From a virus (Duplodnaviria; Caudoviricetes): DNA of 64,000 nt. The stretch lies in IMG/VR virus record IMGVR_UViG_3300036958_000855, positions 19,652 to 83,651 of that record; one strand, 5' to 3'. This document shows, piece after piece, positions 1-62,670 of the stretch (position 1 is the stretch's first letter; each line of letters opens with the position of its first letter). A program made the position numbers and the translations under genes. Below the pieces are notes generated by a model, which saw only the letters and a program-made list of their open reading frames with translations, was not told the DNA's origin and made no database searches.

Positions 1-271
1 CGAGGCCGATGAACAGGAACGGGGTGAAGTTGGTGCGCCCGGCGCTGACGCCGCGCTGCACGCAGCCGCGCACGCTTCCCCCCTTCGCCATCGGCGCGAA
101 GTTGGTCTGGTTGGTGAAGAAGCCGACCGCTCCCGCAAGAACATCGAGCGAGTTGAAGCCGAAGATGAAGGTGCCACCTCCGTTCGGCGCCGTGATGCCT
201 CCGGTGATGCCGCGGCTGACGGAGCCGCTGCTCAGTCCGCCACCTAGTTCTGTCCAATCAGCCTGGGCCAT
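1..271 (-). CDS. Putative virion structural protein, N-terminal part (runs off the window edge)
   Basis: Not in the ORF track. ATG at 271 with GGAGGAG RBS; reads MAQADWTELGGGLSSGSVSRGITGGITAPNGGGTFIFGFNSL... with no stop before base 1; directly downstream of the baseplate genes. Confidence 0.6.
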   Translation of the reverse strand, partial: MAQADWTELGGGLSSGSVSRGITGGITAPNGGGTFIFGFNSLDVLAGAVGFFTNQTNFAPMAKGGSVRGCVQRGVSAGRTNFTPFLFIGL

Positions 272-283
272 GGGTTGCTCCTC

Positions 284-1114
284 CTAGACGTTCACCGTCC
301 ATATCCAGTGGACGGCTGGGTCGCCGTGCACGTAGTTGATTCCGATGCCGTAGTCCGTGATGTTCTCGACTGGCGTGCCCGCGGGGTTGAGGCTTGACGT
401 GAACGTGTCCGCGTCGATGTAGGTGGCATAGTAGCGGTTTGACTCTGCTAATGGCGCTGGCAGCACGCCTCCCGCGACGAAGTAGTGTGGCTCGTGCACG
501 GAGCCGCCGAACATGTTGTGCGGTCCCGCCGTCGTGATGTAGTTGAGCGTGGTGTCCACGCTGAACGCATGCTGAGGGCGGTATTGCAAGAAGCCCTCGT
601 AAGTCGCATAGATGACCGACCCGCCTCCGCTCATGTACGCATACTGCGCGCTCTGAACGGCGATTAGCTCGGTGACGTATGCGTTGTCCCATCCTTCCAG
701 CGCGTCGAAGGTCTCCACCGCACGCGTCGTGAACCAGTAGCGTGCTTCCGCAAGGTCGCCTGGGTCAAACGTGGTCTTCCACACTCCCCACTCGCAGTCG
801 TCAATCGGGTCCGCACCCCCGTTGTAGAGGGCAGTCTCGGCCAAAGACAGCTCCGTGAGCCATGGCACGTTGTCCCAATACATCTCGAACCCTTCGCGTG
901 GGAGCAGTTGGTACTCGGCGCCGTCCAGGTCCGTGCTCGCGAAGGCGCCGAGGTACGTGGCGTCCCACCCCTCGTCTGCGGAAAACCGCTCCCAAGGAAG
1001 GTCGCTGTACGTGGCGATGCGCGCCGCGGTGCACACCACGCTCGCGTCCCAATCTAGCGGAATCCCCGGCGTCGCCGAAGCGGTCTCGAAGCTCAGGTTG
1101 CTTGGGGCTGGCAT
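284..1114 (-). CDS. Baseplate-associated hypothetical protein (276 aa)
   Basis: Start overlaps the baseplate-J stop; aromatic/acidic composition; synteny only. Confidence 0.55.
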   Translation of the reverse strand: MPAPSNLSFETASATPGIPLDWDASVVCTAARIATYSDLPWERFSADEGWDATYLGAFASTDLDGAEYQLLPREGFEMYWDNVPWLTELSLAETALYNGGADPIDDCEWGVWKTTFDPGDLAEARYWFTTRAVETFDALEGWDNAYVTELIAVQSAQYAYMSGGGSVIYATYEGFLQYRPQHAFSVDTTLNYITTAGPHNMFGGSVHEPHYFVAGGVLPAPLAESNRYYATYIDADTFTSSLNPAGTPVENITDYGIGINYVHGDPAVHWIWTVNV

Positions 1115-45355: not shown

Positions 45356-46198
45356 TTACCCTCCGGGTAGCGTCTTGCGCTTGCCGAGCACCCAGTCGAG
45401 CACGGCGCGCACGGGCGCTTCGACTTGCGGGTCAATGCTGTCACGCGCCGCAGCCACCTCCTTGGCGCCACGGCACCGCATGGCAGGTGGCGCCCGCAAC
45501 CGCCCGCGCTTGCCGCGGGCTTGCGCTGCTTGCTCGCGCGCAGCGGCGCCGCGCATCTGGCCTGACGCACGCATCTCTTCGAGCTTCTGCGTCTGCTCCT
45601 CGGTCGGGAGCGCGCTCAGAGTGCGCGCCACCGTGAGCGGCAAGTCGCCCATCTCTACTGCGCGCTGCACCGGGCGCGCGCACTGGAGGAGAGCAACAAG
45701 GTTGCGAATGCCACGGCTGTCCGTACCGAACACGACCTCAGCATCCTTCTCGCTGTACCCCATGTCGAGGTAGCGCTTGAGCTTGCGCGCGTTGCTCATC
45801 GCGTCGGTGGCGACGCGCAGTTCGTTCGTTGCCACCATCGCGCCGAATGCGTCGCCCTCATCGCCGCGACGGATGACCGCGGGCACAAGCACGGGCGGGT
45901 CGCCGTTGGCCTTGCGCGCGTTCACCGCTCTGGCAGCGCGCACGCGCTGTCGCCCATCCACGACTTCTATGATGGGCGTCCCGTCCTCTGCCTCTCCGTT
46001 GCGCCGCACGACCACTGGCTCCAACACGCCTTGCGCCGCGATGCTCCGCACGAGCGGCTCGGACACTGGCATGTTCACCCGGTCGTCGTAGAGCGGATGC
46101 GCCTTGTCCTCTACAAGCACCAGCTTGTCGGGGTCGAACAGCAGAAGCTCGCCGCGCTTCACCGCGTTGAACCGCTTCTCTGCAAAGTTGTCAGCCAT
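45356..46198 (-). CDS. ParB/Srx-family protein
   Basis: LVRSIAAQGVLEPVVVR...EVVDGRQRVRAA...ATNELR, followed by an HTH. Confidence 0.85.
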   Translation of the reverse strand: MADNFAEKRFNAVKRGELLLFDPDKLVLVEDKAHPLYDDRVNMPVSEPLVRSIAAQGVLEPVVVRRNGEAEDGTPIIEVVDGRQRVRAARAVNARKANGDPPVLVPAVIRRGDEGDAFGAMVATNELRVATDAMSNARKLKRYLDMGYSEKDAEVVFGTDSRGIRNLVALLQCARPVQRAVEMGDLPLTVARTLSALPTEEQTQKLEEMRASGQMRGAAAREQAAQARGKRGRLRAPPAMRCRGAKEVAAARDSIDPQVEAPVRAVLDWVLGKRKTLPGG

Positions 46199-50240: not shown

Positions 50241-50993
50241 TCAACCTCCTTGTATTCCGAGCAACTTGTGCGCTTGCGGGCACAACGCCCATTCCGGGTG
50301 TGCCATCACGAAGTCTATCGCACGTTGCAGATGCAGATGCAGCGCGACAAGAGCGAGTTGTTGCGTCTCCTCGTCCGCGTCCTCGCAGTCCACCAGCGCC
50401 GTCTTGCCCGGAGCGTCCCCGAGCAGTACGTCCTGCGGCACGACGTAGAGCGCGCCCCACCTGCCCGAATCGGCAAGCGAGAGCAGTTCATCATCAGCCC
50501 AACCGCCAGTCTGTGACGGTGCGACGCCTGGCAGCACGACGCGCAGCTCGTGCGCGCGCGCCACGGCGAGAGGCACTCCGTGCTTCGGGCTCACGGTCAC
50601 CCAATCCACGTCCCCGAGCAGTGCGCTTTCGATGGTGCCGTTCGTCTCAACCGCCACCATCCAACCAGCAGCATGCAACGCATCAAGCAGCTCGCGGTCA
50701 AGGTGAAGCATCGGCTCCCCTCCCGTGAGCACACACCATCGAGGCGTTGCGCCAGTGCTGGGCCACAGGTCGTCAAGCGCGAGCAGAAGTGCGTCGAGCG
50801 AGAGCACTTGCCCGCGGTGAAAGTCGGCATCGCACCAGAGAGCGCACGGAGCATCAGAACGTGCGCGCGAGAGCGCCGTGCCCTCCCACAGATTGCACCC
50901 AGCGAAGCGCACGAACACGCTGCGTTTCCCGGCGCGACGCCCCTCGCATTGGAGCGAGTTGTAGATGTCCTTGACGGCGTAGCGACTACTCAT
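50241..50993 (-). CDS. queE: QueE-like radical SAM enzyme (divergent)
   Basis: YAVKDIYNSLQCEG...VFVRFAGCNLW...C...WCDADF, TGGEP, ETNGT, VTVSPK, QAHK. Confidence 0.8.
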   Translation of the reverse strand: MSSRYAVKDIYNSLQCEGRRAGKRSVFVRFAGCNLWEGTALSRARSDAPCALWCDADFHRGQVLSLDALLLALDDLWPSTGATPRWCVLTGGEPMLHLDRELLDALHAAGWMVAVETNGTIESALLGDVDWVTVSPKHGVPLAVARAHELRVVLPGVAPSQTGGWADDELLSLADSGRWGALYVVPQDVLLGDAPGKTALVDCEDADEETQQLALVALHLHLQRAIDFVMAHPEWALCPQAHKLLGIQGG

Positions 50994-53604
50994 CGACCTC
51001 CTCCAATTCTGGCAAGGACACGTCGATGTTCGACGGGAACTGGAGCGGAATCTGCTGCGGGTCGCCCTTGAAGAACACGAGGACGTTCTGATGCGTCTTG
51101 CCGAGCTTGCGGTAGCGCGGGAACTGGCGCCCAACCCGCACGGGGAGGCTGCCAACAGCCGTCACGAGAATCGCCTCGTTGTAGAAGCGTGCGCCCGCGT
51201 CCTCGAACGCCTCGATGGTGAGCGGGATGAGCCCGCGGTAGAACCCGCCATCTCCGCGCACCTCGCCAACGACGACCACCGCGAAGCGGTTCGGTCGCAG
51301 CCGCGCCACGGCGCGCGCCACGATGTCGCGGTAAACGCGGTTGAACTCCGCGTTCGTCATGTTCGACAAGTCGCGCGGGTCGTCGCTGTAGACCTCCAGG
51401 TCGAAGTAGGGAGGGCACGTGAACACGAGGTCCACCTGTTCTCCGTCCTCCGAGAGCACATCCTTGGAGTCACCAACGAGCCACGTCGGGTCATTCACCG
51501 GAGCGGTTGGAGCGGGATGCCACGTCACCGCCACCGTCTGGCGCAGCCCAACAACCCAGAAACAGTCTCCCGGCTCCAGGAATGGCAGCGCCTTCGCCTC
51601 GTAGTGCGGGTCGAGCACCACGTCGCCAATGCGATTGCTGGGCGCTGCGTCGTGGTAGTCGAGGTCACTTCGCACGAGCGTCACCATGTCCCGCCAGTTT
51701 GCGGGCGCCCATCTGTCGAGCCGCTCCTCCGGGTCGGCACCAACCACGACACCAAGCACCGGCAAGCGCAGGCCAGCATCAACGAGCCCGTGCAAGATGC
51801 CCGCGAGCGACATGCCAGACCCAACCGGAACAACGAGGCGCTTCGCATCGGTCGGCAGATTGCGCGCCTGCGCCCGTGTCGCATCCACCGCGGCTTGGCA
51901 TTCCATGCCGAATGGAATCTCGCGCCACCCAGCCGCGGCTGCGTCCTCCCGTGCGCGGGCGATGATGACGTTGTTGTACCCCGGCGAGTGCTGCACGTGC
52001 TCAGCGCCAGCACCGATTGCTGCGAGCACTTCCGGCGCGGGCTCCCCGCTCGGGGTGTGCACGCGACACGGGATGTTCAGGGCGCGCGCGACGTGCGCGA
52101 CGATGTTCACCTGCGGGCTCGCACGGCTCCCAGCCGTCACGAGCCCCGACGCGCCTTGTGCGAGCCCCCAGCACGTGCGCACCTTGCCACCGCGCACGCC
52201 AGCGACCGAAAACAAGTCGTCGCGCTTGAGCCACAGCTCCCCGACGCGCTGCACAGGCGTCATCGCAACCGGGTCCGCGATGGTCGGCTCTGGCTGCTCC
52301 TGGGATGCGAGCCGCGAGCTGATGTCGCGCCACTGCTCCTCGTTCGCAGCAACCTGCTCTTGCCGCAGGTCGATGCCGGTGTAGTGGAGGCCAAGCGTGG
52401 CTGCCACGACGCCGCGCACGCTCCCACCCGCGAACGGGTCGAGCACCCGCCCACCAGTCGGACAGAACCAGCGGTAGACCAGTTCGCACAACACCGGGTC
52501 GAAGATGCTCGTGCCCGTCCGGTTGACGGTCGTGTCCGCGCCACCGCTGTAGGCGTTGATGGGTGCGCGAATGCTCGTCGTCCTGCCGGGGATGTGCACG
52601 CCACCCGGCTCGGCACGCGCCGGGGAAGGACCGCGCGACACGGCGATGTCCTCACCTGGCTTCGCCCGTTCCATGCGCTCCGCGAGGCTGTTCTTCGACT
52701 TCGCCCAAGCACGCGCCACCTTCTGCCTTGCGGGTGGCTCCAACGACCCGCCCGGCGCGACGCGGCTGCTTGGGGTTGTCACGGCGCCATCCGCGAACAG
52801 ACCCACCTTCGCGCCAGACGGCTCGCGCACCCGTGCGTGCAGGTCGCCGCGGGCGAACTTCCCGTCTGGCCCGATACGGTCGGATGGGAACATGCCACCG
52901 CCCGGCGCTGCGGTTTTGGCGCCGCGGTTGAGGTGGTCTGGAAGGTCGTAAGCGAGGTTCTCGCCTCGCCCAATCTCACTCTGGATGCCCAACGTAAGCC
53001 ACCAGTTCTTGCGCTCGCGCCAATACCCCTGGCGCGCGTCGAGCACGGAGAACGGAGGCACACCGAAGCGCGCCGCAAGCGAGCCCATGTTGATGTTTGG
53101 ACGTTCGTCGTTCCCGCCAAGGTTAGGAGGCGTGAGCGTGCTCGCCAGAAGCCGGTCCAGCTCCTCCTTCGTGATGCCTGTGCCGCGCAAACCGTGCTCG
53201 ACAGACGCGGCGCTCTCAGTCACGCGCCGCATCATCTCCCCAAGCTCGGCCTCATCCCAACCACCCAACTCGACGAGCCGGTTGTCGGCAACGAGGTACG
53301 CTTCCGCCTCTTCCTCGCTTGTGAACTCCACGCCACGGAGGACAGGCACCGCCCAATCCCCATCAACCTCATGAATGCGCTGTGGCGGAGCCATCCCCGC
53401 ATCGCGCCGGGCAAGCAGCGCCTCCAGACGCCCGTGCCCGGCGACCAGCTTGCCAGACGAATCATCCTGAACGAGCGGCGCCACGAAGCCAAAGCGCTCC
53501 AGGCTCTGGTTCAGTTCGGACAGGTTGTGGCGCTTGGGGTTGCGCGGCCACCGACGCACCTGCTCCAGCGGAACGTACTCGATTCGGACTGACTGTGCGG
53601 ACAT
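50986..53604 (-). CDS. ParB-N / DNA amino-methyltransferase with an inserted PLP-dependent (fold type II) domain
   Basis: ParB: RNPKRH...GFVAPL...AGHGRLEA; MTase motif I DPFAGG; PLP: TP...LKRDD...GGKVR, PVGSGMS, LDPHYEAK; MTase catalytic CPPY. Confidence 0.85.
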   Translation of the reverse strand: MSAQSVRIEYVPLEQVRRWPRNPKRHNLSELNQSLERFGFVAPLVQDDSSGKLVAGHGRLEALLARRDAGMAPPQRIHEVDGDWAVPVLRGVEFTSEEEAEAYLVADNRLVELGGWDEAELGEMMRRVTESAASVEHGLRGTGITKEELDRLLASTLTPPNLGGNDERPNINMGSLAARFGVPPFSVLDARQGYWRERKNWWLTLGIQSEIGRGENLAYDLPDHLNRGAKTAAPGGGMFPSDRIGPDGKFARGDLHARVREPSGAKVGLFADGAVTTPSSRVAPGGSLEPPARQKVARAWAKSKNSLAERMERAKPGEDIAVSRGPSPARAEPGGVHIPGRTTSIRAPINAYSGGADTTVNRTGTSIFDPVLCELVYRWFCPTGGRVLDPFAGGSVRGVVAATLGLHYTGIDLRQEQVAANEEQWRDISSRLASQEQPEPTIADPVAMTPVQRVGELWLKRDDLFSVAGVRGGKVRTCWGLAQGASGLVTAGSRASPQVNIVAHVARALNIPCRVHTPSGEPAPEVLAAIGAGAEHVQHSPGYNNVIIARAREDAAAAGWREIPFGMECQAAVDATRAQARNLPTDAKRLVVPVGSGMSLAGILHGLVDAGLRLPVLGVVVGADPEERLDRWAPANWRDMVTLVRSDLDYHDAAPSNRIGDVVLDPHYEAKALPFLEPGDCFWVVGLRQTVAVTWHPAPTAPVNDPTWLVGDSKDVLSEDGEQVDLVFTCPPYFDLEVYSDDPRDLSNMTNAEFNRVYRDIVARAVARLRPNRFAVVVVGEVRGDGGFYRGLIPLTIEAFEDAGARFYNEAILVTAVGSLPVRVGRQFPRYRKLGKTHQNVLVFFKGDPQQIPLQFPSNIDVSLPELEEVDE

Positions 53605-53630
53605 GCGGAGTCTCCTTGCGCGTGACGCGC

Positions 53631-55268
53631 TCACGTTCTCATGGTGACAACGCCGTTGTCTACATGCACATGGCGGTCAGAGCGCAGCGTTTGAGCGATG
53701 GCGTCTGAGTGGGACACGATGACCACGCAGCGGTCTTGCGCGAGTTCGTGCAGCACGGCGCTGATGCGTTGCACGCCGTCCGGGTCGAGCAGGTCGAACA
53801 CCTCGTCGAAGAACAGCGTGCCCGACGCGCCAGAATGAGCAGCGCTCGCAACCTCCGCGAGCGCTAGGAGCAACGCCACGTCGAGGCGCCGTCGCTCTCC
53901 ACCAGACGCGGCACGGTAGCCGTGCCCGTCCCCTGCTCCGATGATGTCGAGGCTGATGCTGTCGCTCACGCCTCCGGTCTTCTTCTCAGTGTATGGGGAG
54001 AGCTTCAAGCGCAACTCGCGCCCAGCGACGCGGCTCAACCAGACGTTGGCAACCGCCTCGATGCCACCGAGCGCACGTGCGAGCACGTGCGCTCGCACAC
54101 CCTTCAACCCGAGCACCTGCTCGCACGCTTGGAGTTCGTCACGGAGTTTCGTCGCCTGCGCGAGGCGCTCTTCCTGCTCCGCCAAGGCAAGCTCAAACTG
54201 CCCGACCTTCGCCGTCGCATCTGCAACCGTGGCGCGCACTTGTGCGTCCCTGTCCCGTGAGAGCTTGGCGCTCCGATAGGCGTGTGCAGCCTCGCGAAGC
54301 TTGCCTTCCAGAGCAGCACGCTCCGCGTTGAGTTCGTCGAAGAGGTCAGCGCCTTTCGCAAGTTCCTCGTTGGCGGCAGCCATGCGCTGCTCGTGTGCGG
54401 CTTGGGCCTCTTGCGCTTCGCGCTCCAGCTTGTCCCGCAGCGCTTGCGGGATGGGCTGGCTACACGTCGGGCACGTCGCGCCACGCAGGCGCTCCAACGT
54501 CGCCCGCGCTTGCCTCGCCATGGCTGCCAGCTCCCCCTGGCTCGTTGCGCCACGCCTCGACATGTCCGTCATCGACCGGAGGTCCGCCTCGGACTTCTCG
54601 ACGAGCGCGCGTAGGTTCTCCGCCTTGGCGCGTAGCGCTTCCACATCCTCGGTGGCTACGTGGTCGTCACCGAGCCACGACTGCGCCTCCGCCAGTCGCC
54701 GTTGCTCGGACCGGAGCCGCTCGCCTTCCACGAAACACCCTCGTTCTGCGACATCACGCGCTGCCTCCGCCTGCTTCAAGTCCTTGCGGCACGCATCCAG
54801 CGCGACGTCGAACCGCTCGATGCCGAGGATGCGCTCCAGCAATCGCTTGCGCTCCCCATCCGTCGCGAGCGAGAAGTGCGTGGCATCCGCGCTACTGAAC
54901 AGCGAGCATCGGCGCCAGACCTCCCACGGACCAACCACGCTCTCCAGCGCGTCCTGCGCCTTGGTCGTGTTCTCGAACTTCGTCGCTGGCTCGCCCTGCT
55001 TGTTCCAGTCGAGCATCACCTTGCCCTTCTTGCGCTTGCGGATGGCGCACGCGAGGTCCGTGACGACCGCTGCCTCGCCGTCTGGTCCAGACCACGGCGC
55101 CGTGCCGCGCACGGTCTGACCCCACAACGCCACGCTCACGCCCTCGACGATGCTCGACTTGCCAGAGCCGTTTCCGCCGGTCACGAGCACAACGCCCCTC
55201 GTCGGCAGAGCGAGCGTCGTGTCCTTGTGCGCCATGAATCCCTTGATGCGAAGGCTTCGGACGTTCAT
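53631..55268 (-). CDS. SbcC/Rad50-like ATPase
   Basis: Walker A GGNGSGKS, zinc hook CPTC, signature SGGE, Walker B FFDE. Confidence 0.92.
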   Translation of the reverse strand: MNVRSLRIKGFMAHKDTTLALPTRGVVLVTGGNGSGKSSIVEGVSVALWGQTVRGTAPWSGPDGEAAVVTDLACAIRKRKKGKVMLDWNKQGEPATKFENTTKAQDALESVVGPWEVWRRCSLFSSADATHFSLATDGERKRLLERILGIERFDVALDACRKDLKQAEAARDVAERGCFVEGERLRSEQRRLAEAQSWLGDDHVATEDVEALRAKAENLRALVEKSEADLRSMTDMSRRGATSQGELAAMARQARATLERLRGATCPTCSQPIPQALRDKLEREAQEAQAAHEQRMAAANEELAKGADLFDELNAERAALEGKLREAAHAYRSAKLSRDRDAQVRATVADATAKVGQFELALAEQEERLAQATKLRDELQACEQVLGLKGVRAHVLARALGGIEAVANVWLSRVAGRELRLKLSPYTEKKTGGVSDSISLDIIGAGDGHGYRAASGGERRRLDVALLLALAEVASAAHSGASGTLFFDEVFDLLDPDGVQRISAVLHELAQDRCVVIVSHSDAIAQTLRSDRHVHVDNGVVTMRT

Positions 55269-58224: not shown

Positions 58225-58433
58225 CAGACACTCCCTTCGTCGTTGGGGCTGCACGTGCCTTGCACAAGCGCGCGCGGATTCTCGCCACACCGCACAAGCA
58301 CGCGCCCATCCGGCGTCCAGTTCTCGAAAGGAGGGCACGCCTTGTCCGGAGTTTGGCTCACGCGCCCGCACACCAGACACACGAACAGCGTCTTCCCGCT
58401 CGGGCTCGTGCGCACGATTGGCTCCCAGCGCAT
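58224..58433 (-). CDS. Small zinc-finger protein
   Basis: FVCLVCGR...C; coupled on both sides. Confidence 0.55.
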   Translation of the reverse strand: MRWEPIVRTSPSGKTLFVCLVCGRVSQTPDKACPPFENWTPDGRVLVRCGENPRALVQGTCSPNDEGSV

Positions 58434-61400
58434 CACGCCTTCCTCTTCTCCATCGCGCCCCAGGCGCGCCCAACCTTGAAGTCCACGACCAGCGGCACCC
58501 CCTGGCAGTTGAAGCCCTGCATGATGTTGCCGAGTTGCCAGATGACCTCCTCGACGTTCTCCTCCCGCGTCTCCAGCATGATGGAGTCGTGCACGGGCAC
58601 CACGACCTTCGCCGGAACCGCGTCTTCCAGAATCCACGCCACGACCGCGACAAGACTCGCCACGAGGAAGTCGCTCGCGGTCCCCTGCACTGGGGTGTTC
58701 CACGAGGCGTGCTCTGCTTTGCTACGCGCGAGGTCGTCCTTGTCGGCAACACGCCAGAGGTTTCGTCGCCGCGCCCGATGCCCGTCCCACCACGTCCACG
58801 CCTCACCCGTGCGGCGTGCCTCCGCAAGGCACTCCTGGCACCATCGGTCCAGCTTGCGGAACTTCCCAAGAATCGCCTCCCTCACCCGAGCCGCTTCTGA
58901 CTTCTTGCACCCCATTGTGCGTGCCAACTCGTCATCGCCCTGCCCGTAGAGCAGCCCGAAGTTGATGCCCTTCGCCCAGCTCCGGTGCTTGTCCGTGACG
59001 TCCTCCGGCGCGATTCCCCAAGCCACCCGGCTCACGAGCTGCGCCGTGCGAAGATGGTAGTCCACGCCCTCACGAAAGATGGCGCGCATCTTCTCGTCGC
59101 CGGATAGCGCGGCAGCGACGCGCAGCTCAATCTGGCTGTTGTGCGTCAAGAACCCTTCCGCGATGAACGTCCTAGTCGAGGTCTGCACCGCAACGACATC
59201 GCGTTCACCGAGGTACTCCACAGCAAGCACAACCGCTGGCTTGGACTTCTTGCCCCAGGTACGTCGGCCATCCCACCCGGCTCTCACGCCAGCCATCAGC
59301 CGAGACGGACGCAGCATTCCGAGCAAACGAAGCCCAGCCTTTTCACCCGCTACCCGCACTCGATTGCACCCGTTCTGGTTCTTGTCGATGTCCAGCATGA
59401 ACCCGCGCGCACGAAGCTCCGCGCACACCTTGGCGAACACAGCCCCGTCGTTCTGACCAAACCCAACGCAGCGGCCACCATCCGATACCCAACCCTCGCC
59501 GTCCAAGAACCCGCTCAGGTAGCCTCCCATCCAAGACGTGTCCTCTTCCCACGGGTCCGCAAAGAATGAGATCTTATCACCGACGCGAAGCTCCTGTGTC
59601 TGCACCCACGCTCGCACTTGCCGACCCAGCTTTGGGCGCACAACCCACCCGTGCATCGCGCTCGCGATGCACTGACCGCGGCTTGTGACGACCCGATAGC
59701 ACGGTTGCACAAGCCGCTTCGTCGCTTGCACGACCGCACCACGGAAAGAGCACTTGTGCCCGCCCAAGTCCTCATCGAACCCAACCAACTCCTGTCCGAC
59801 TTCCACCTCTTCTATCGGCTGCCACCGCAAGTCCGCTGTTAGCACCCGCGTGCCAGGAGCGAGGCAGTAGTCCGCCTCCACGAGCACGTGACCCGGAGGA
59901 GCGCAGAAGACGTTCCGCGCCATGGTGCCCTCCTCCGTTTGCGCCCGCGGGATGTTCTGGAGGTTCGGGTCGCTCGACGATGTGCGCCCAGAACGCGCGC
60001 CGTCGAGGTTGAGGTTGGGGTGGATGCGCCCGTCCGCGCGCACGTGCGGGAGCATCCCGCTCGCGTACGTGCCGCGCATCTTCGACACGCGCCGATATTC
60101 GAGCAGCGTGGCTGGGAGCGGGTGGTGCGTCTTGAGCGCGTCGAGCACGTCGGCATCCGTGGAGTCGCCTCCGCTCTTGGTCTCCTTCTGTGGAGGCAAG
60201 CCCAGCTTGTTGAACAAGATGTCCGCGACCTGCTTGGGGCTGTCCCAGTTCACGCCAGAGAAGTAGCCGTTCAGCTTCTCCCCCAATTCCTGCGCCCGCA
60301 CCGAGCACCACGTGTCAAACACGCGCAAAGCGTCCCGGTCGGCGCCGATTCCCCATGCCTCGACCTGCGCAATGGCCTCCGAAGCCGGGCGCACAAGCCG
60401 GTGCCACGTGCGACGCAAGTCTGGCTCGGCATCGAGCGCGCGCCACATCATCTCGCATAGGCGCGCCGTGGTCACGCTATCGCGCGCGTTGTAGCGGTAC
60501 AGCGTGCGATTCGGGATGAAAGCAAAGGACCACTTGTCCGTCTCGTGCTCGCCAGACGCGACCATGCGGTCAAGCGCTGGCGCGTCCTCTGGCGGGTCAC
60601 GGAACTCTGCGAGTTCGTAGGCGTCCGGGTTCGTCTTGCGCACTGCACGCAGCGCCTTGTTGACCATCTTGACCGCGTTTGCCTTCGCCGTCTCTGCCTC
60701 CTCCTTGTGCCCGCCAAGCCCGACAAGCTCCGCCATCGCGGCAAGGCGCCCGTCTGCGTCGCTCTCCAGGAGCTTTCGCATGAGGCGCGAGTCGAGCGCG
60801 ACCCCGCGAGGCATCACGCCATACGCCGCGAAGAACGCCACGCAATCGAACTTCACATTCTGGCCTGCCTTGGGCGCGTTTTCGTCTCGCATGTAGTCCA
60901 GCAGCACTCCGCGTGCTGCTGGGTTGGCAAGCCCGTCCTTCGTCCAAACGTAGGCATCATCGCGCCCGCGCCCGCACAACGACACGCACAGCACACGGAA
61001 CGACGGGTCGAACATGCACCCAGCCGTCTCCACGTCGAACGCTGCCCACTCGCACGTTCGTAGCGCTGCGACCGCGGCACGGGCGTCGTCCTCGTTCTCC
61101 ACCAGCCAAGCGGGCGCATCCCACACCGGGTCTGGCACGTTGACCGTCAATGCCCAGGCCATGTCCGCCTCGAACCAGCGGCGCACGAAGCGGTTGCGCA
61201 GGGCAGCAGCCGGGTGCACGACCATGAACACGGGAACAGGCAATCCGAGCGGAGGAGTCATGTCCGGGCTCGTGAGGAATCCGAACCCGCGCCGCGTGCT
61301 CAGTGGCGACACGGACCTCCCAAGCACCGCTTGGGCAGCAGTCGCCCCGACCGTGACAATCCGCCGAGGTTGCGCCTCCAGAATGGTCTGAGCGAGATAG

Positions 61401-61756
61401 CCTCGGCACGCGGCGACGTGCTTGTCCTTCACCTCGACCCCGGTTCCCGGATAGCACCGAAGCGCGTTGTCGAGCACTACCGGACCCGCCCAATGCTGCG
61501 CCACGACCTGCCGCAGCAGCGTCCCGCTCGGACCAACAAACGGGCGCCCGCGGACGTCTTCCTCACGACCAGGCGCTTCCCCTACGATGAGCACCCCTCC
61601 AGCGTGGTCCGCGCTCGCGATGACCTCTCCCCCGACGCACACGGAGCGCGCGCCCTCCCAAAGAGAACAGCGACGACATGCCTTATCCTGTTCGAGCGGC
61701 GCGACACGCTCAACCTCGGCTTGTGGGGTGCCATCGTAGAGTGCGATGCGCTTCAT
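58433..61756 (-). CDS. Family A DNA polymerase with N-terminal family-4 uracil-DNA glycosylase and 3'-5' exonuclease; intein-containing
   Basis: UDG CxxC, GEAPG, HPAAALR; exonuclease FDVET, QNVKFD, YNARD; GRTSSSDPNLQNIPR, motif A DY/SQIELR, motif B KGINFGLLYG, motif C VHDS. Confidence 0.95.
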   Translation of the reverse strand: MKRIALYDGTPQAEVERVAPLEQDKACRRCSLWEGARSVCVGGEVIASADHAGGVLIVGEAPGREEDVRGRPFVGPSGTLLRQVVAQHWAGPVVLDNALRCYPGTGVEVKDKHVAACRGYLAQTILEAQPRRIVTVGATAAQAVLGRSVSPLSTRRGFGFLTSPDMTPPLGLPVPVFMVVHPAAALRNRFVRRWFEADMAWALTVNVPDPVWDAPAWLVENEDDARAAVAALRTCEWAAFDVETAGCMFDPSFRVLCVSLCGRGRDDAYVWTKDGLANPAARGVLLDYMRDENAPKAGQNVKFDCVAFFAAYGVMPRGVALDSRLMRKLLESDADGRLAAMAELVGLGGHKEEAETAKANAVKMVNKALRAVRKTNPDAYELAEFRDPPEDAPALDRMVASGEHETDKWSFAFIPNRTLYRYNARDSVTTARLCEMMWRALDAEPDLRRTWHRLVRPASEAIAQVEAWGIGADRDALRVFDTWCSVRAQELGEKLNGYFSGVNWDSPKQVADILFNKLGLPPQKETKSGGDSTDADVLDALKTHHPLPATLLEYRRVSKMRGTYASGMLPHVRADGRIHPNLNLDGARSGRTSSSDPNLQNIPRAQTEEGTMARNVFCAPPGHVLVEADYCLAPGTRVLTADLRWQPIEEVEVGQELVGFDEDLGGHKCSFRGAVVQATKRLVQPCYRVVTSRGQCIASAMHGWVVRPKLGRQVRAWVQTQELRVGDKISFFADPWEEDTSWMGGYLSGFLDGEGWVSDGGRCVGFGQNDGAVFAKVCAELRARGFMLDIDKNQNGCNRVRVAGEKAGLRLLGMLRPSRLMAGVRAGWDGRRTWGKKSKPAVVLAVEYLGERDVVAVQTSTRTFIAEGFLTHNSQIELRVAAALSGDEKMRAIFREGVDYHLRTAQLVSRVAWGIAPEDVTDKHRSWAKGINFGLLYGQGDDELARTMGCKKSEAARVREAILGKFRKLDRWCQECLAEARRTGEAWTWWDGHRARRRNLWRVADKDDLARSKAEHASWNTPVQGTASDFLVASLVAVVAWILEDAVPAKVVVPVHDSIMLETREENVEEVIWQLGNIMQGFNCQGVPLVVDFKVGRAWGAMEKRKA
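59138..59866 (-). mobile_element. Intein (243 aa) with a single LAGLIDADG-type motif
   Basis: Cys1 CLAPGTRV, terminal THN, +1 Ser; splicing restores DYSQIELR; YLSGFLDGEG motif. Confidence 0.92.
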
Positions 61757-62670
61757 CCCGTGTGACCCATGACTTCGAGGGTTCGCGGGATGCGCGTCTC
61801 CAAGTCGGGGATTCGGCTCAGCACCGGCACCTCCGCCTTGATGTCCGAGCAAAGCGCCACAAGGTCGCTAGCGCTCGTCACGCCACTGTCGATGAGCTTG
61901 CCGAGCACTTCGCCAAGCCGCGCAGCCTTCTTCAGTTCAGCCAGCACCGTGGCGTCCAATGCGCCGGTTTTCGGCTTGGGCGGAGCGTCCACCGCCTCTC
62001 CCGGAGGGGCGAGCTGCCACGGGTCGGGTTCGCCGGGGAGCACCGGGCCAGCGGCGGTCCCATTGCCCTTCTTCTTGGCGTCGAAGTCCGCCTTGGACAT
62101 CGCCTCTACGCCAGCCATGAGGTCGGCCAGCGTGAGCCAGCAATGGTTGTTGAAACAAACCACACCACCATCTGGCCGAAGATGCAGCTCCTTCCCGCAC
62201 GCTGGGCACGGAGGGAGCGCCTCCGTTGGCTTGGCCTGCGGCTCTTGCGGTGCAGATGCCTCCGGGCGCTTGCGCGTCGCCCGACGCTTGGGTGCTTCTG
62301 CCACAGGCGCGGGTTCTGGAGCGGGCTCCGGCTTGGGCTCCACAGCGGGCGCCGCAACCAACGTAGCGGCAACCACGGGCTCAGGCGCGCCGGGCACCGG
62401 AATGGGTGGCGGAACGTGGATAGGCGCGGTCTCGGCAGCCTTCGACGCCTCCTCATAGGCGCGGTCCTTCGCGTCCCGGTCGCCAGTCACGCCGAGTGCC
62501 GCTGGTCCACCGAGGCAAAGCGTCGCGAGAACGAGCTTGGCCTCTTCTTCGCCAAGACCGTAGAGCGCGAGGCGCCCCTTGTTGGCGCGAAAACCGAAGC
62601 GCCTCTCGTAACCGAGGACCTCTGCGGTTCCGCCCCAATCCGTGATGTTGAACTTCGCTTGCTGGTTCAT
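61753..62670 (-). CDS. Pro/Ala-rich hypothetical protein with central CxxC...CxxxxC
   Basis: GGAG RBS before MNQQAKF; stop overlaps the polymerase start. Confidence 0.6.
   Translation of the reverse strand: MNQQAKFNITDWGGTAEVLGYERRFGFRANKGRLALYGLGEEEAKLVLATLCLGGPAALGVTGDRDAKDRAYEEASKAAETAPIHVPPPIPVPGAPEPVVAATLVAAPAVEPKPEPAPEPAPVAEAPKRRATRKRPEASAPQEPQAKPTEALPPCPACGKELHLRPDGGVVCFNNHCWLTLADLMAGVEAMSKADFDAKKKGNGTAAGPVLPGEPDPWQLAPPGEAVDAPPKPKTGALDATVLAELKKAARLGEVLGKLIDSGVTSASDLVALCSDIKAEVPVLSRIPDLETRIPRTLEVMGHTG

What the first reader, a model, noticed from the sequence alone, without database searches (positions are those of the whole stretch)
50986..53604. DNA methyltransferase with a complete PLP enzyme inserted between its SAM-binding and catalytic motifs: candidate new DNA-modification enzyme
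Seen: one ORF in the order ParB-N (~53250-53604), SAM-binding motif I DPFAGG (52423-52440), a ~250-aa insert (~51547-52290), then the catalytic CPPY (51406-51417) and the rest of the MTase. The insert keeps fold-type-II PLP hallmarks of the ACC deaminase/D-cysteine desulfhydrase group: TP..LKRDD..GGK (candidate Schiff-base Lys at 52183-52185), phosphate loop PVGSGMS, and LDPHYEAK. Established: ParB-MTase fusions are common in phages, and PLP enzymes paired with radical SAM enzymes process amino-acid adducts on DNA in thymidine-hypermodifying phages such as Pseudomonas phage M6. I do not recall a PLP domain nested inside an amino-MTase. Inference: the two active sites may be coupled, for example transferring a SAM-derived group other than methyl (such as aminocarboxypropyl) and then deaminating or eliminating it, or making the donor in situ, to give a non-canonical A or C that blocks restriction.
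Basis: partly seen in the sequence, partly recalled or inferred. Interest (0 to 1): 0.92.

Follow-up and report, generated by a model that had tools for sequence, protein, structure and literature searches.

The report
Phage DNA methylase with built-in PLP enzyme
A phage gene fuses a DNA-binding ParB domain, a DNA methyltransferase-type enzyme and, nested inside it, an intact vitamin-B6 (PLP) enzyme whose nearest studied relatives trim amino acids hanging on phage DNA, so this widespread, unstudied module may put a mark other than methyl on DNA.

Summary
One intact 882-aa ORF (50986-53634, minus strand) reads ParB-N, SAM motif I (DPFAGG), a ~270-aa fold-type-II PLP module with Lys484, then CPPY. 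Every coordinate checks. It is not a chimera. Hundreds of independent contigs and cultured phages (Pam4, Erythrobacter ZS04/R6L) carry the same fusion.

- CPPY marks the whole methyltransferase family, including more than 7,300 PLP-free relatives. It is not tied to the insert.
- Nesting is not essential. The same PLP module (58-72% identical) is also C-terminal or a separate neighbouring gene.
- The PLP module fails ACC-deaminase/D-Cys-desulfhydrase membership. It matches the PHROG family of ViI gp226, a proven decarboxylase of amino acids attached to DNA.

The adjacent QueE-like gene is not a conserved partner.

My best reading, at about 35%, is this. The transferase places the amino-acid (aminocarboxypropyl) end of SAM on a DNA base, and the PLP module then decarboxylates it. 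The main rival is plain methylation with a helper PLP enzyme.

I found no publication on this family. This scan met the same family earlier on other DNA, at least six times. It is a new variant of phage DNA hypermodification, and it can be tested in cultured phages.

The parts
50986..53634 (-). Whole CDS, 882 aa from GTG 53634. The gene as called elsewhere starts at ATG 53604 (872 aa). Stop TAG at 50986-50988.
   Evidence: (P0002)
53122..53595 (-). ParB/Srx N-terminal domain, residues 14-171
   Evidence: phrog_620 E 1.4e-24 and phrog_15396 E 1.6e-21; pLDDT 82-96. Only about 30% identical among homologues.
52960..53079 (-). Conserved 40-residue motif (FGVPPFSVLD..W..RK..W..GI.SE.GR), residues 186-225. 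It is shared with PLP-free family members.
   Evidence: 64% median identity
52522..52953 (-). Variable linker predicted to be disordered, residues 228-371
   Evidence: pLDDT below 50 for 228-303 and 324-374; not alignable among homologues
52297..52521 (-). Methyltransferase N-half, residues 372-446: GTSIFDPVLCEL helix, motif I DPFAGGSVRG (52423-52440), strand 2 and its helix
   Evidence: Pfam N6_N4_Mtase 390-430; aligned to 2zie residues 220-270; invariant D399
51487..52296 (-). Nested fold-type-II PLP module, residues 447-716. Includes Schiff-base Lys484 (52183-52185), S506-P507-Q508, phosphate loop G605-S609, and Y678-E679-K681.
   Evidence: PALP E 2.7e-9; phrog_3650 E 6e-38; 1j0a Z 24.1; Lys aligned with the GGNK lysine of D-Cys desulfhydrase 4d8t and 1j0a and with K92 of ViI gp226; invariant residues
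51025..51486 (-). Methyltransferase C-half, residues 717-870: W.GDS strand, motif IV FTCPPY (CPPY = 51406-51417), rest of the catalytic domain
   Evidence: aligned to 2zie residues 26-101; phrog_498 and phrog_12517; forms one Rossmann domain with the N-half
50241..50993 (-). Neighbouring QueE-like radical SAM gene. Its probable ATG at 50993 overlaps the methyltransferase stop by 8 nt. It is probably not part of the module in general.
   Evidence: TIGR04508 E 2.5e-49 but below the cut-off; overlap; a QueE homologue lies near the fusion in only 1 of 80 related loci

Best explanation
The gene encodes a self-contained, three-module phage DNA-modifying enzyme. The ParB-N domain loads or holds it on DNA. 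The split Rossmann domain is a SAM-dependent transferase that acts on an exocyclic amino group of a flipped base; it belongs to the CPPY family. The nested PLP module is a tailoring enzyme that acts on an amino-acid group hanging on the DNA, as its nearest characterised relatives ViI gp226 and M6 gp52 do. The transferase is the module's only conserved partner, and SAM is that partner's only amino-acid-bearing substrate. The most likely chemistry is therefore transfer of the 3-amino-3-carboxypropyl end of SAM (releasing methylthioadenosine) to adenine N6 or cytosine N4. PLP-dependent decarboxylation to an aminopropyl side chain would follow, giving a cationic mark that blocks restriction. Shown: the domain anatomy, the conserved catalytic residues, the tight PLP-to-transferase linkage, and the kinship with DNA-amino-acid decarboxylases. 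Inferred: the group transferred, the target base, decarboxylation itself, and the anti-restriction role.
For: (1) The PLP module scores 131.6 bits (E 6e-38) on phrog_3650. ViI gp226 is a member of that family (E 2.5e-241). By comparison it scores 37 bits on Pfam PALP and 19.5 bits on TIGR01275. BLASTP against gp226 gives E 3e-6, with Lys484 aligned to gp226 K92 and a shared S-P-Q and P.YE.K. gp226 and M6 gp52 are purified PLP decarboxylases of O-seryl- and C-alpha-glycinyl-thymine in DNA (PMC8989533). (2) Dependence runs one way. Of 80 viral loci with the module, 64 are fused to the CPPY transferase and 11 have it within 1.6 kb. One near-complete genome has it about 13 kb away. The remaining 4 are fragments estimated 2-17% complete. 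The transferase family itself is mostly PLP-free. This is the pattern expected of a downstream tailoring enzyme. (3) The two have been joined in several layouts: nested, appended, and as separate genes. (4) The same loop, or the PLP module itself, also carries other tailoring domains. A GNAT acetyltransferase is nested in P0303. PLP-GNAT (P0171) lies 4 nt after a CPPY transferase gene. PLP plus an Fe/2OG-type hydroxylase are nested in P0382. An extra class-I methyltransferase is present in P0367. Such enzymes need an amine or alkyl side chain and have nothing to do on m6A or m4C. (5) The 83.6-kb phage record shows no 5-hmdU kinase, amino-acid:DNA transferase, ThyA-like or Tet/JBP gene, so no other adduct supplier was found. 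(6) Catalytic residues are kept: GGK in nearly all of about 240 sequences, CPPY in 124 of 125, DPFAGG in 114 of 122. The PLP module is the most conserved part, at 67% median identity. (7) A paralogue with an eroded transferase but an intact PLP module lies between two intact ParB-CPPY transferases. This fits PLP acting on DNA already modified by an active transferase. (8) ParB-like proteins are published activators of phage DNA base-modifying enzymes (PMC13229309).
Against: No N6_N4_Mtase-family enzyme, and no DNA enzyme at all, is known to transfer aminocarboxypropyl. The transferase core of PLP-linked members cannot be told apart from that of thousands of PLP-free relatives. The window's core is 65% identical (median) to PLP-free ones and 61% to other PLP-linked ones. 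On the tree, PLP linkage changes at least 22 times, and no column discriminates the two groups. So either the whole family transfers something other than methyl, or all members simply methylate. One prophage ParB-methyltransferase, BCE_0392, gave weak m6A in E. coli (PMC3459991), though I did not test whether it belongs to this family. The phage record is only 78% complete.
Confidence: 0.35

Rival explanations
1. The transferase is an ordinary N6-adenine or N4-cytosine DNA methylase. The PLP module is a helper that acts on a small molecule, for example by destroying the inhibitory product S-adenosylhomocysteine, converting SAM, or removing a host defence metabolite. It is tethered to the methylase only for proximity.
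For: Most family members work without any PLP module (most cultured phages have no PLP match). The catalytic cores are identical. A ParB-methyltransferase gave m6A. Nesting is dispensable. The fold is closest to ACC deaminase and D-Cys desulfhydrase, which act on free C3/C4 amino acids related to the SAM side chain.
Against: The specific sequence kinship is with enzymes that act on DNA-borne amino acids, not with metabolic enzymes. The GNAT and hydroxylase domains in the same loop are hard to explain as SAH or SAM housekeeping. A paralogue with a dead methylase keeps the PLP module while retaining the DNA-binding scaffold.
Confidence: 0.3
2. The PLP module trims an amino-acid adduct that some other, unrecognised enzyme installs on DNA. 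The methyltransferase fold only tethers it and presents the base, or methylates the resulting amine.
For: Known pathways install the amino acid with a kinase plus a transferase, not with SAM. A catalytically eroded scaffold still carries the module. The record is 78% complete.
Against: No kinase, amino-acid:DNA transferase, ThyA-like or Tet/JBP gene was found in the 83.6 kb. Clustering of neighbours over 80 loci found no conserved partner gene, only terminases and portals.
Confidence: 0.15
3. The module works with the translationally coupled QueE-like radical SAM gene, in a 7-deazaguanine pathway or in a radical-SAM/PLP pathway like that of phage M6.
For: There is an 8-nt start/stop overlap. 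M6 pairs a radical SAM isomerase with its PLP decarboxylase.
Against: A QueE homologue lies near the fusion in only 1 of 80 related loci. The record has no DpdA/TGT, QueC, QueD or FolE.
Confidence: 0.05
4. The insert is a catalytically dead PLP-fold domain that serves as a target-recognition or structural domain.
For: It sits where alpha-class methyltransferases carry their recognition domain.
Against: The Schiff-base Lys, the phosphate loop and the Y-E pair are invariant over hundreds of sequences. The module also exists as a free 250-aa protein.
Confidence: 0.03

Closest known systems
ViI gp226 (phrog_3650) and M6 gp52 (phrog_7093): PLP-dependent decarboxylases of amino-acid:thymine conjugates in phage DNA (PMC8989533)
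   Same: Both are phage-encoded fold-type-II PLP enzymes. The window's module matches the gp226 profile at E 6e-38. The Schiff-base Lys aligns with gp226 K92, and S-P-Q and P.YE.K are shared.
   Different: Pairwise identity is only 23-28%. gp226 has an extra N-terminus and a ~60-residue insert. Those enzymes are stand-alone and work after a 5-hmdU kinase and an amino-acid:DNA transferase, neither of which was found here. This one is tied to a SAM-dependent amino-methyltransferase.
Phage and prophage ParB-methyltransferases without an insert (Enterococcus phiFL3A gp36, Listeria B054 gp77, HCTV-2 gp11; possibly BCE_0392 of B. cereus, which gave weak m6A)
   Same: They share the ParB-N domain, the 40-residue motif, GTSIFDPVLCEL, DPFAGGSVRG and F[ST]CPPY. 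Identity is 41-43% over the full length, and up to 69% in the core for metagenomic relatives.
   Different: They have no PLP module. Their chemistry is almost unstudied. I did not test whether BCE_0392 belongs to the family.
ACC deaminase and D-cysteine desulfhydrase (1j0a, 4d8t, 1rqx)
   Same: These are the best structural matches (Z 22-24). The Lys, the phosphate loop and DPxY(E/T)xK are aligned.
   Different: The window's module is about 70 residues shorter. S-N-H/Q is replaced by S-P-Q. TIGR01275 scores 19.5 bits against a cut-off of 289. It is not a member of that family.
TrmN, Trm14 and Trm11: N2-guanine tRNA methyltransferases, and the beta-class DNA methylase TTHA0409 (2zie)
   Same: They share one Rossmann domain with the order motif I then xPPY. 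All act on exocyclic amino groups. Z is 17-18 at rmsd 2.2-2.8 A, and 2zie matches by sequence.
   Different: Those act on RNA, or (for 2zie) are circularly permuted relative to this protein. They have D/N/S rather than Cys before PPY, and no inserted domain.
ParB-dependent phage thymine dioxygenases (PMC13229309)
   Same: In both, a ParB-like module is recruited to a post-replicative phage DNA base-modifying enzyme, often beside the terminase.
   Different: There ParB is a separate activator of an Fe/2OG dioxygenase. Here it is fused to a SAM-dependent enzyme.

Membership tests
N6_N4_Mtase (PF01555) amino-methyltransferases | SAM-binding motif I (DPFxGxG) with a Pfam match above the gathering score | tested here: met
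   Residues 390-430, 31.3 bits against a cut-off of 26.7; D399 is invariant.
N6_N4_Mtase (PF01555) amino-methyltransferases | Catalytic motif IV (D/N/S)PP(Y/F/W) | tested here: inconclusive
   PPY is present, but the first residue is Cys (C740). CPPY occurs in 124 of 125 PLP-linked and 111 of 120 PLP-free relatives. The effect of Cys on the chemistry is unknown.
N6_N4_Mtase (PF01555) amino-methyltransferases | The two halves form one class-I Rossmann methyltransferase domain | tested here: met
   TrmN 3tma: Z 18.3, rmsd 2.2 A, 165 residues aligned over model range 2..486.
N6_N4_Mtase (PF01555) amino-methyltransferases | Transfers methyl from SAM to DNA | not testable with these tools
   Needs biochemistry.
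Fold-type-II PLP enzymes (PALP, PF00291) | Pfam match above the cut-off, and the fold | tested here: met
   37.2 bits against a cut-off of 35. Foldseek 4d8t E 7e-11. 1j0a Z 24.1 over 254 residues.
Fold-type-II PLP enzymes (PALP, PF00291) | Schiff-base lysine and glycine-rich phosphate loop at the homologous positions | tested here: met
   The GGK lysine aligns with the GGNK lysine of 4d8t and of 1j0a. GSGMS aligns with their phosphate loop. Both are invariant in the family.
ACC deaminase / D-cysteine desulfhydrase family (TIGR01275) | Score above the family cut-off | tested here: not met
   19.5 bits against a cut-off of 289.4.
ACC deaminase / D-cysteine desulfhydrase family (TIGR01275) | Active-site S-N-(H/Q) after the TAG block | tested here: not met
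   S506-P507-Q508, invariant.
Phage PLP decarboxylases of DNA-borne amino acids (ViI gp226 type, phrog_3650) | Profile match, and Lys aligned with gp226 K92 | tested here: met
   E 6.2e-38; gp226 itself scores E 2.5e-241. BLASTP E 3e-6 with K484 aligned to K92.
Phage PLP decarboxylases of DNA-borne amino acids (ViI gp226 type, phrog_3650) | Co-occurrence with a 5-hmdU DNA kinase and an amino-acid:DNA transferase | tested here: not met
   No homologue of ViI gp243 or gp247, and no ThyA-like gene, in the 83.6-kb record, which is 78% complete.
Phage PLP decarboxylases of DNA-borne amino acids (ViI gp226 type, phrog_3650) | Decarboxylase activity on DNA | not testable with these tools
   Needs biochemistry.
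ParB/Srx N-terminal domain | Profile match at the N-terminus | tested here: met
   phrog_620 at 1.4e-24, phrog_15396 at 1.6e-21 and phrog_723 at 5e-21. Pfam ParB_N did not reach E 0.01 for this sequence, but it is recorded for many homologues.
Phage 7-deazaguanine (Dpd/Que) DNA modification | DpdA/TGT plus QueC, QueD and FolE alongside QueE | tested here: not met
   Only a below-cut-off QueE-like gene is present. There is no TGT, QueC, PTPS or GTP cyclohydrolase I in the record.

The most novel reading that the evidence does not exclude
The whole CPPY family of ParB-linked 'methyltransferases' (thousands of phage genes) transfers the aminocarboxypropyl group of SAM to DNA rather than methyl. 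The members with PLP, GNAT or hydroxylase domains in the same loop then sculpt that group into aminopropyl, acetylated or hydroxylated forms. This would be a new SAM-derived class of DNA hypermodification on adenine or cytosine.
Probability: 0.2. Interest if true: 0.92.

Novelty: new variant of a known kind. Interest (0 to 1): 0.72.

Why it matters
Known phage DNA hypermodifications start from 5-hydroxymethyl-pyrimidines or 7-deazaguanine. Here a tailoring enzyme of the kind that trims amino acids on DNA is tied to a SAM-dependent amino-methyltransferase instead. The tie takes every possible layout, across hundreds of uncultured phages and several cultured ones.

If the transferase installs the amino-acid end of SAM, this would be a new chemistry for DNA. 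It would also be a new activity for one of the best-known enzyme families, and a source of restriction-resistant DNA and of enzymes for DNA labelling.

If it only methylates, the PLP module is still an unexplained, highly conserved accessory of phage methylases.

Either way, the question can now be tested directly in cultured phages: Pam4, vB_EliS_R6L/ZS04, Vincenzo/AlanGrant and Mae-JY30.

Tried and rejected
- **Near-identical phage DNA.** Megablast of 15 kb around the gene against 50,697 phage records found no match.
- **QueE as a partner.** tblastn of the window's neighbours (QueE, SbcC, SbcD, gp32-like, PolA, CHAP, FEN, second ParB) against 80 related loci gave QueE in 1 locus and PolA in 4, so the neighbourhood is not conserved.
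- **Conserved neighbour genes.** All-against-all clustering of 5,011 ORFs from the 80 loci gave only antisense ORFs of the gene itself, plus terminases and portals of several types in at most 9 loci each.
- **Discriminating residues.** No alignment column separates PLP-linked from PLP-free cores; the largest total-variation distance is 0.66, at non-motif positions.
- **Thymidine-hypermodification and 7-deazaguanine genes in the record.** None found. The Tet_JBP search had no positive control and proves nothing.
- **Complex prediction.** Tested a separately encoded transferase (L008) with its neighbouring PLP protein (P0149). The result was 'no answer' (score 0.00), which is evidence neither way.
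- **Literature.** Searches for ParB + methyltransferase + pyridoxal, 'ParB-methyltransferase', PLP-dependent + DNA methyltransferase + hypermodification, and aminocarboxypropyl + phage found nothing on this family.
- **Phosphorothioation.** An idea linking cysteine desulfhydrase, the CPPY Cys and phosphorothioation was dropped. The module is not a D-Cys desulfhydrase member, and no Dnd genes were seen.
- **Distance between active sites.** Model coordinates are not exposed, so the distance between the PLP and SAM sites could not be measured.


Full report
**Observation**

The window is 64 kb of an 83.6-kb IMG/VR phage record that is 78% complete. It has 65% GC, and most genes are on the minus strand. 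The ORF at 50986..53634 (-) is intact. It is 882 aa from GTG, or 872 aa from the ATG at 53604, which is how the same protein is called elsewhere (P0002).

- DPFAGG = D399-G404
- Lys484 = 52183-52185
- PVGSGMS = residues 603-609
- LDPHYEAK = residues 674-681
- CPPY = C740-Y743

Pfam finds PALP (residues 466-635) and N6_N4_Mtase (residues 390-430), both above their gathering scores. PHROGs add ParB families at residues 14-171. Against the PDB by sequence, residues 720-793 align with the N-terminal xPPY region of the beta-class methylase 2zie, and residues 378-428 align with its C-terminal motif I. So, relative to beta-class enzymes, the order is permuted: motif I comes first, then motif IV.

**Structure**

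The AlphaFold2 models are confident for all four folded parts. pLDDT is 77 for the whole protein. For residues 372-870 it is 88, with pTM 0.68. Residues 228-375 form a disordered linker.

An all-against-all structure search of the second model shows two things:
- The insert (model 82-336) matches the ACC-deaminase homologue 1j0a at Z 24.1, D-cysteine desulfhydrase at Z 23.1 and ACC deaminase at Z 22.2.
- The two flanking pieces together (model 2..486) match single Rossmann methyltransferases that act on exocyclic amines: TrmN at Z 18.3 with rmsd 2.2 A, then Trm14 and Trm11.

The nesting is therefore real. By secondary structure, the insert lies between the helix that follows strand 2 and the W.GDS strand that precedes CPPY. 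In Rossmann folds, helix-to-strand loops lie on the sheet edge opposite the cofactor site. That is general knowledge about the fold. It could not be measured here, because model coordinates are not exposed.

**Not a chimera, and not rare**

The insert alone finds at least 499 fused proteins of 485-1544 aa. They are 60-72% identical in the insert, and nearly all also carry PF01555. It also finds at least 983 proteins of 149-475 aa. Most of these are free-standing PLP proteins of about 250 aa, at 56-72% identity.

A profile of the module finds 473 clusters (50% identity level) at E <= 1e-30 among 1.84 billion representatives.

Cultured phages carry it too:
- nested in Pseudanabaena phage Pam4 gp70 and Erythrobacter phages ZS04 gp7 and vB_EliS_R6L;
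- as separate adjacent genes in Mycobacterium phages Vincenzo/AlanGrant (gp1 = ParB-transferase, gp2 = PLP, annotated 'carboxylate deaminase');
- as three separate genes in Microcystis phage Mae-JY30, with a divergent PLP gene annotated as a methylase.

GC3 is uniform along the gene.

**What is and is not special about the methyltransferase**

Insert-free homologues (phiFL3A gp36, Listeria B054 gp77, HCTV-2 gp11) share the 40-residue motif after ParB, GTSIFDPVLCEL, DPFAGGSVRG and F[ST]CPPY.

CPPY occurs in 124 of 125 PLP-linked transferases and in 111 of 120 PLP-free ones. The C-half alone has more than 7,300 PLP-free relatives shorter than 485 aa; the best 120 are 53-69% identical.

I built a tree of 226 cores. 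On it, PLP linkage changes at least 22 times. The window's core is closer to PLP-free cores (median 65% identity) than to other PLP-linked ones (61%). No alignment column separates the two groups.

So the insert did not arrive with a remodelled pocket. Whatever the transferase does, it does with or without the PLP module.

**Layouts**

Among the 120 best long hits, about 98 are nested and about 24 have the PLP module after a complete transferase. Two of the appended forms keep a second, weaker C-half after the PLP module.

Of 80 viral loci holding the module:
- 64 are fused;
- 11 have the transferase within 1.6 kb;
- 1 genome, 94% complete, has it about 13 kb away;
- 4 are fragments estimated 2-17% complete.

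The dependence is thus one-sided. The PLP module almost never occurs without this transferase family, while the family mostly lacks the module. No other gene is a conserved neighbour. The commonest neighbours are terminases and portals of several unrelated types.

**What the PLP module is**

It keeps these residues across hundreds of sequences:
- the Schiff-base Lys, aligned with the GGNK lysine of D-Cys desulfhydrase 4d8t and of 1j0a;
- the phosphate loop;
- the Tyr-Glu pair of DPxYEAK.

It is the most conserved part of the protein. Median identity is 67%, against 54-64% for the transferase halves and 30% for ParB.

It fails membership of the ACC deaminase / D-Cys desulfhydrase family. TIGR01275 scores 19.5 bits against a cut-off of 289, and the active-site S-N-H/Q is S-P-Q.

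Its strongest family match by far is phrog_3650 (E 6e-38). Direct BLASTP gives E 3e-6. Lys484 aligns with gp226 K92, the lysine the authors proposed for the internal aldimine. S-P-Q and P.YE.K are shared.

gp226 and M6 gp52 were purified and shown to decarboxylate O-seryl-thymine and C-alpha-glycinyl-thymine within DNA (PMC8989533). The nearest characterised relatives are therefore decarboxylases of amino acids attached to DNA. They are not deaminases of free amino acids.

**Further clues from relatives**

The same loop of the transferase, or the PLP module itself, also carries other tailoring domains:
- a GNAT acetyltransferase nested at the same site, without PLP (P0303);
- a PLP-GNAT fusion 4 nt downstream of a CPPY transferase (P0171, L096/L097);
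- PLP plus an Asp/Arg-hydroxylase-type Fe/2OG domain, both nested (P0382);
- an added class-I methyltransferase (P0367).

These are the enzyme classes that sculpt amino-alkyl side chains in known hypermodification pathways. They would have no substrate on m6A or m4C.

One paralogue (P0017) has lost motif I and CPPY but keeps a near-perfect PLP module. It lies between two intact ParB-CPPY transferase genes. This suggests that the fold can serve merely to hold the DNA and base for the PLP module.

**Surroundings in this phage**

Upstream on the coding strand are SbcD-like and SbcC-like genes, a gp32-like gene, and a PolA with a UDG-like N-terminal domain. Downstream are a QueE-like radical SAM gene, a CHAP protein, a flap endonuclease and a second ParB.

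The QueE-like ATG at 50993 overlaps the transferase stop by 8 nt. But the record has no DpdA/TGT, QueC, QueD or FolE, and a QueE homologue accompanies the fusion in only 1 of 80 loci.

The record also shows no 5-hmdU kinase, amino-acid:DNA transferase or ThyA-like gene. The target gene is its only N6_N4 methyltransferase.

**Mechanism**

A PLP enzyme needs a primary amine on an sp3 carbon. Unmodified or methylated DNA offers none. The module's only constant partner binds SAM, which carries exactly such an amino-acid moiety.

The most economical model is this. The CPPY transferase places the 3-amino-3-carboxypropyl group of SAM on an exocyclic amine of a flipped base. The PLP module then decarboxylates it to an aminopropyl chain. 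ParB keeps the enzyme on DNA; ParB-like proteins are published activators of phage base-modifying dioxygenases (PMC13229309).

I put this at about 0.35. It requires a chemistry never shown for this enzyme family. It also implies that thousands of PLP-free relatives do the same first step.

The main rival, at about 0.3, is plain methylation with a PLP helper that acts on SAM, SAH or another small molecule. A prophage ParB-methyltransferase (BCE_0392) gave weak m6A in E. coli and no transfer of tritiated methyl in vitro (PMC3459991). I could not test whether it belongs to this family.

Lesser rivals are an unknown installer of the adduct (about 0.15), a link to the QueE-like gene (about 0.05) and a dead structural domain (about 0.03).

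**Novelty**

The paper searches found nothing on this family. The same family was noted at least six times before by this scan on other DNA, with the same leading idea. My tests here agree with those notes. They add the family-wide CPPY result, the one-sided dependence, the census of layouts, the structural proof of nesting, and the GNAT and hydroxylase insertions at the same loop.

I rate it a new variant of a known kind: phage post-replicative DNA hypermodification with a different installing enzyme. It has real experimental handles in cultured phages.

Noticed in passing
window 50241-50993 (-): Orphan, divergent QueE-like radical SAM gene. TIGR04508 scores 168 bits, below the cut-off of 240, and the cluster motif is Cx16Cx3C. 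Its ATG overlaps the stop of the PLP-methyltransferase by 8 nt. The 83.6-kb record has no DpdA/TGT, QueC, QueD or FolE.
   Followed up: partly
window 58433-61852 (-): A 1,139-aa DNA polymerase A with an N-terminal UDG-superfamily domain and a 3'-5' exonuclease. The same UDG-PolA fusion lies near a stand-alone PLP gene plus methyltransferase in locus L010.
   Followed up: no
window 45356-46198 (-): A second, ordinary ParB (ParB_N plus HTH_ParB), separate from the ParB domain of the fusion.
   Followed up: no
P0303, P0382, P0365, P0367 (relatives): The same helix-to-strand loop of the CPPY transferase hosts other domains. P0303 has a GNAT acetyltransferase without PLP. P0382 has PLP plus an Asp/Arg-hydroxylase-type domain. 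P0365 has PLP plus a weak LPG_synthase_C-like (GNAT-fold) match. P0367 adds an N-terminal class-I methyltransferase.
   Followed up: partly
L096/L097 5156-10551: A DNA-modification island in 90-177-kb phage contigs. It holds a CPPY transferase, a PLP-GNAT fusion 4 nt downstream, then a classical DPPF beta-class methylase followed by a Mom homologue, with a thymidylate-synthase-like gene nearby.
   Followed up: partly
L099 4730-9541: Three tandem ParB-transferase genes in a 253-kb phage contig. The middle one has lost motif I and CPPY but carries an intact PLP module. An intein-bearing NrdD and a radical SAM gene lie nearby.
   Followed up: partly
L003 1-2275 (Mycobacterium phage Vincenzo) and L007 2977-5295 (Microcystis phage Mae-JY30): Public annotations mislead. 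Vincenzo gp2 is labelled 'carboxylate deaminase' or 'nucleoside deaminase', and the Mae-JY30 gene labelled 'DNA modification methylase' is a divergent PLP module. Both are PLP modules of this system, lying beside a ParB-CPPY transferase.
   Followed up: partly
P0037, P0087 (relatives): Appended forms keep a second, weaker methyltransferase C-half after the PLP module (MTN-MTC-PLP-MTC'). This hints that the appended layout arose by tandem duplication of a nested gene.
   Followed up: no
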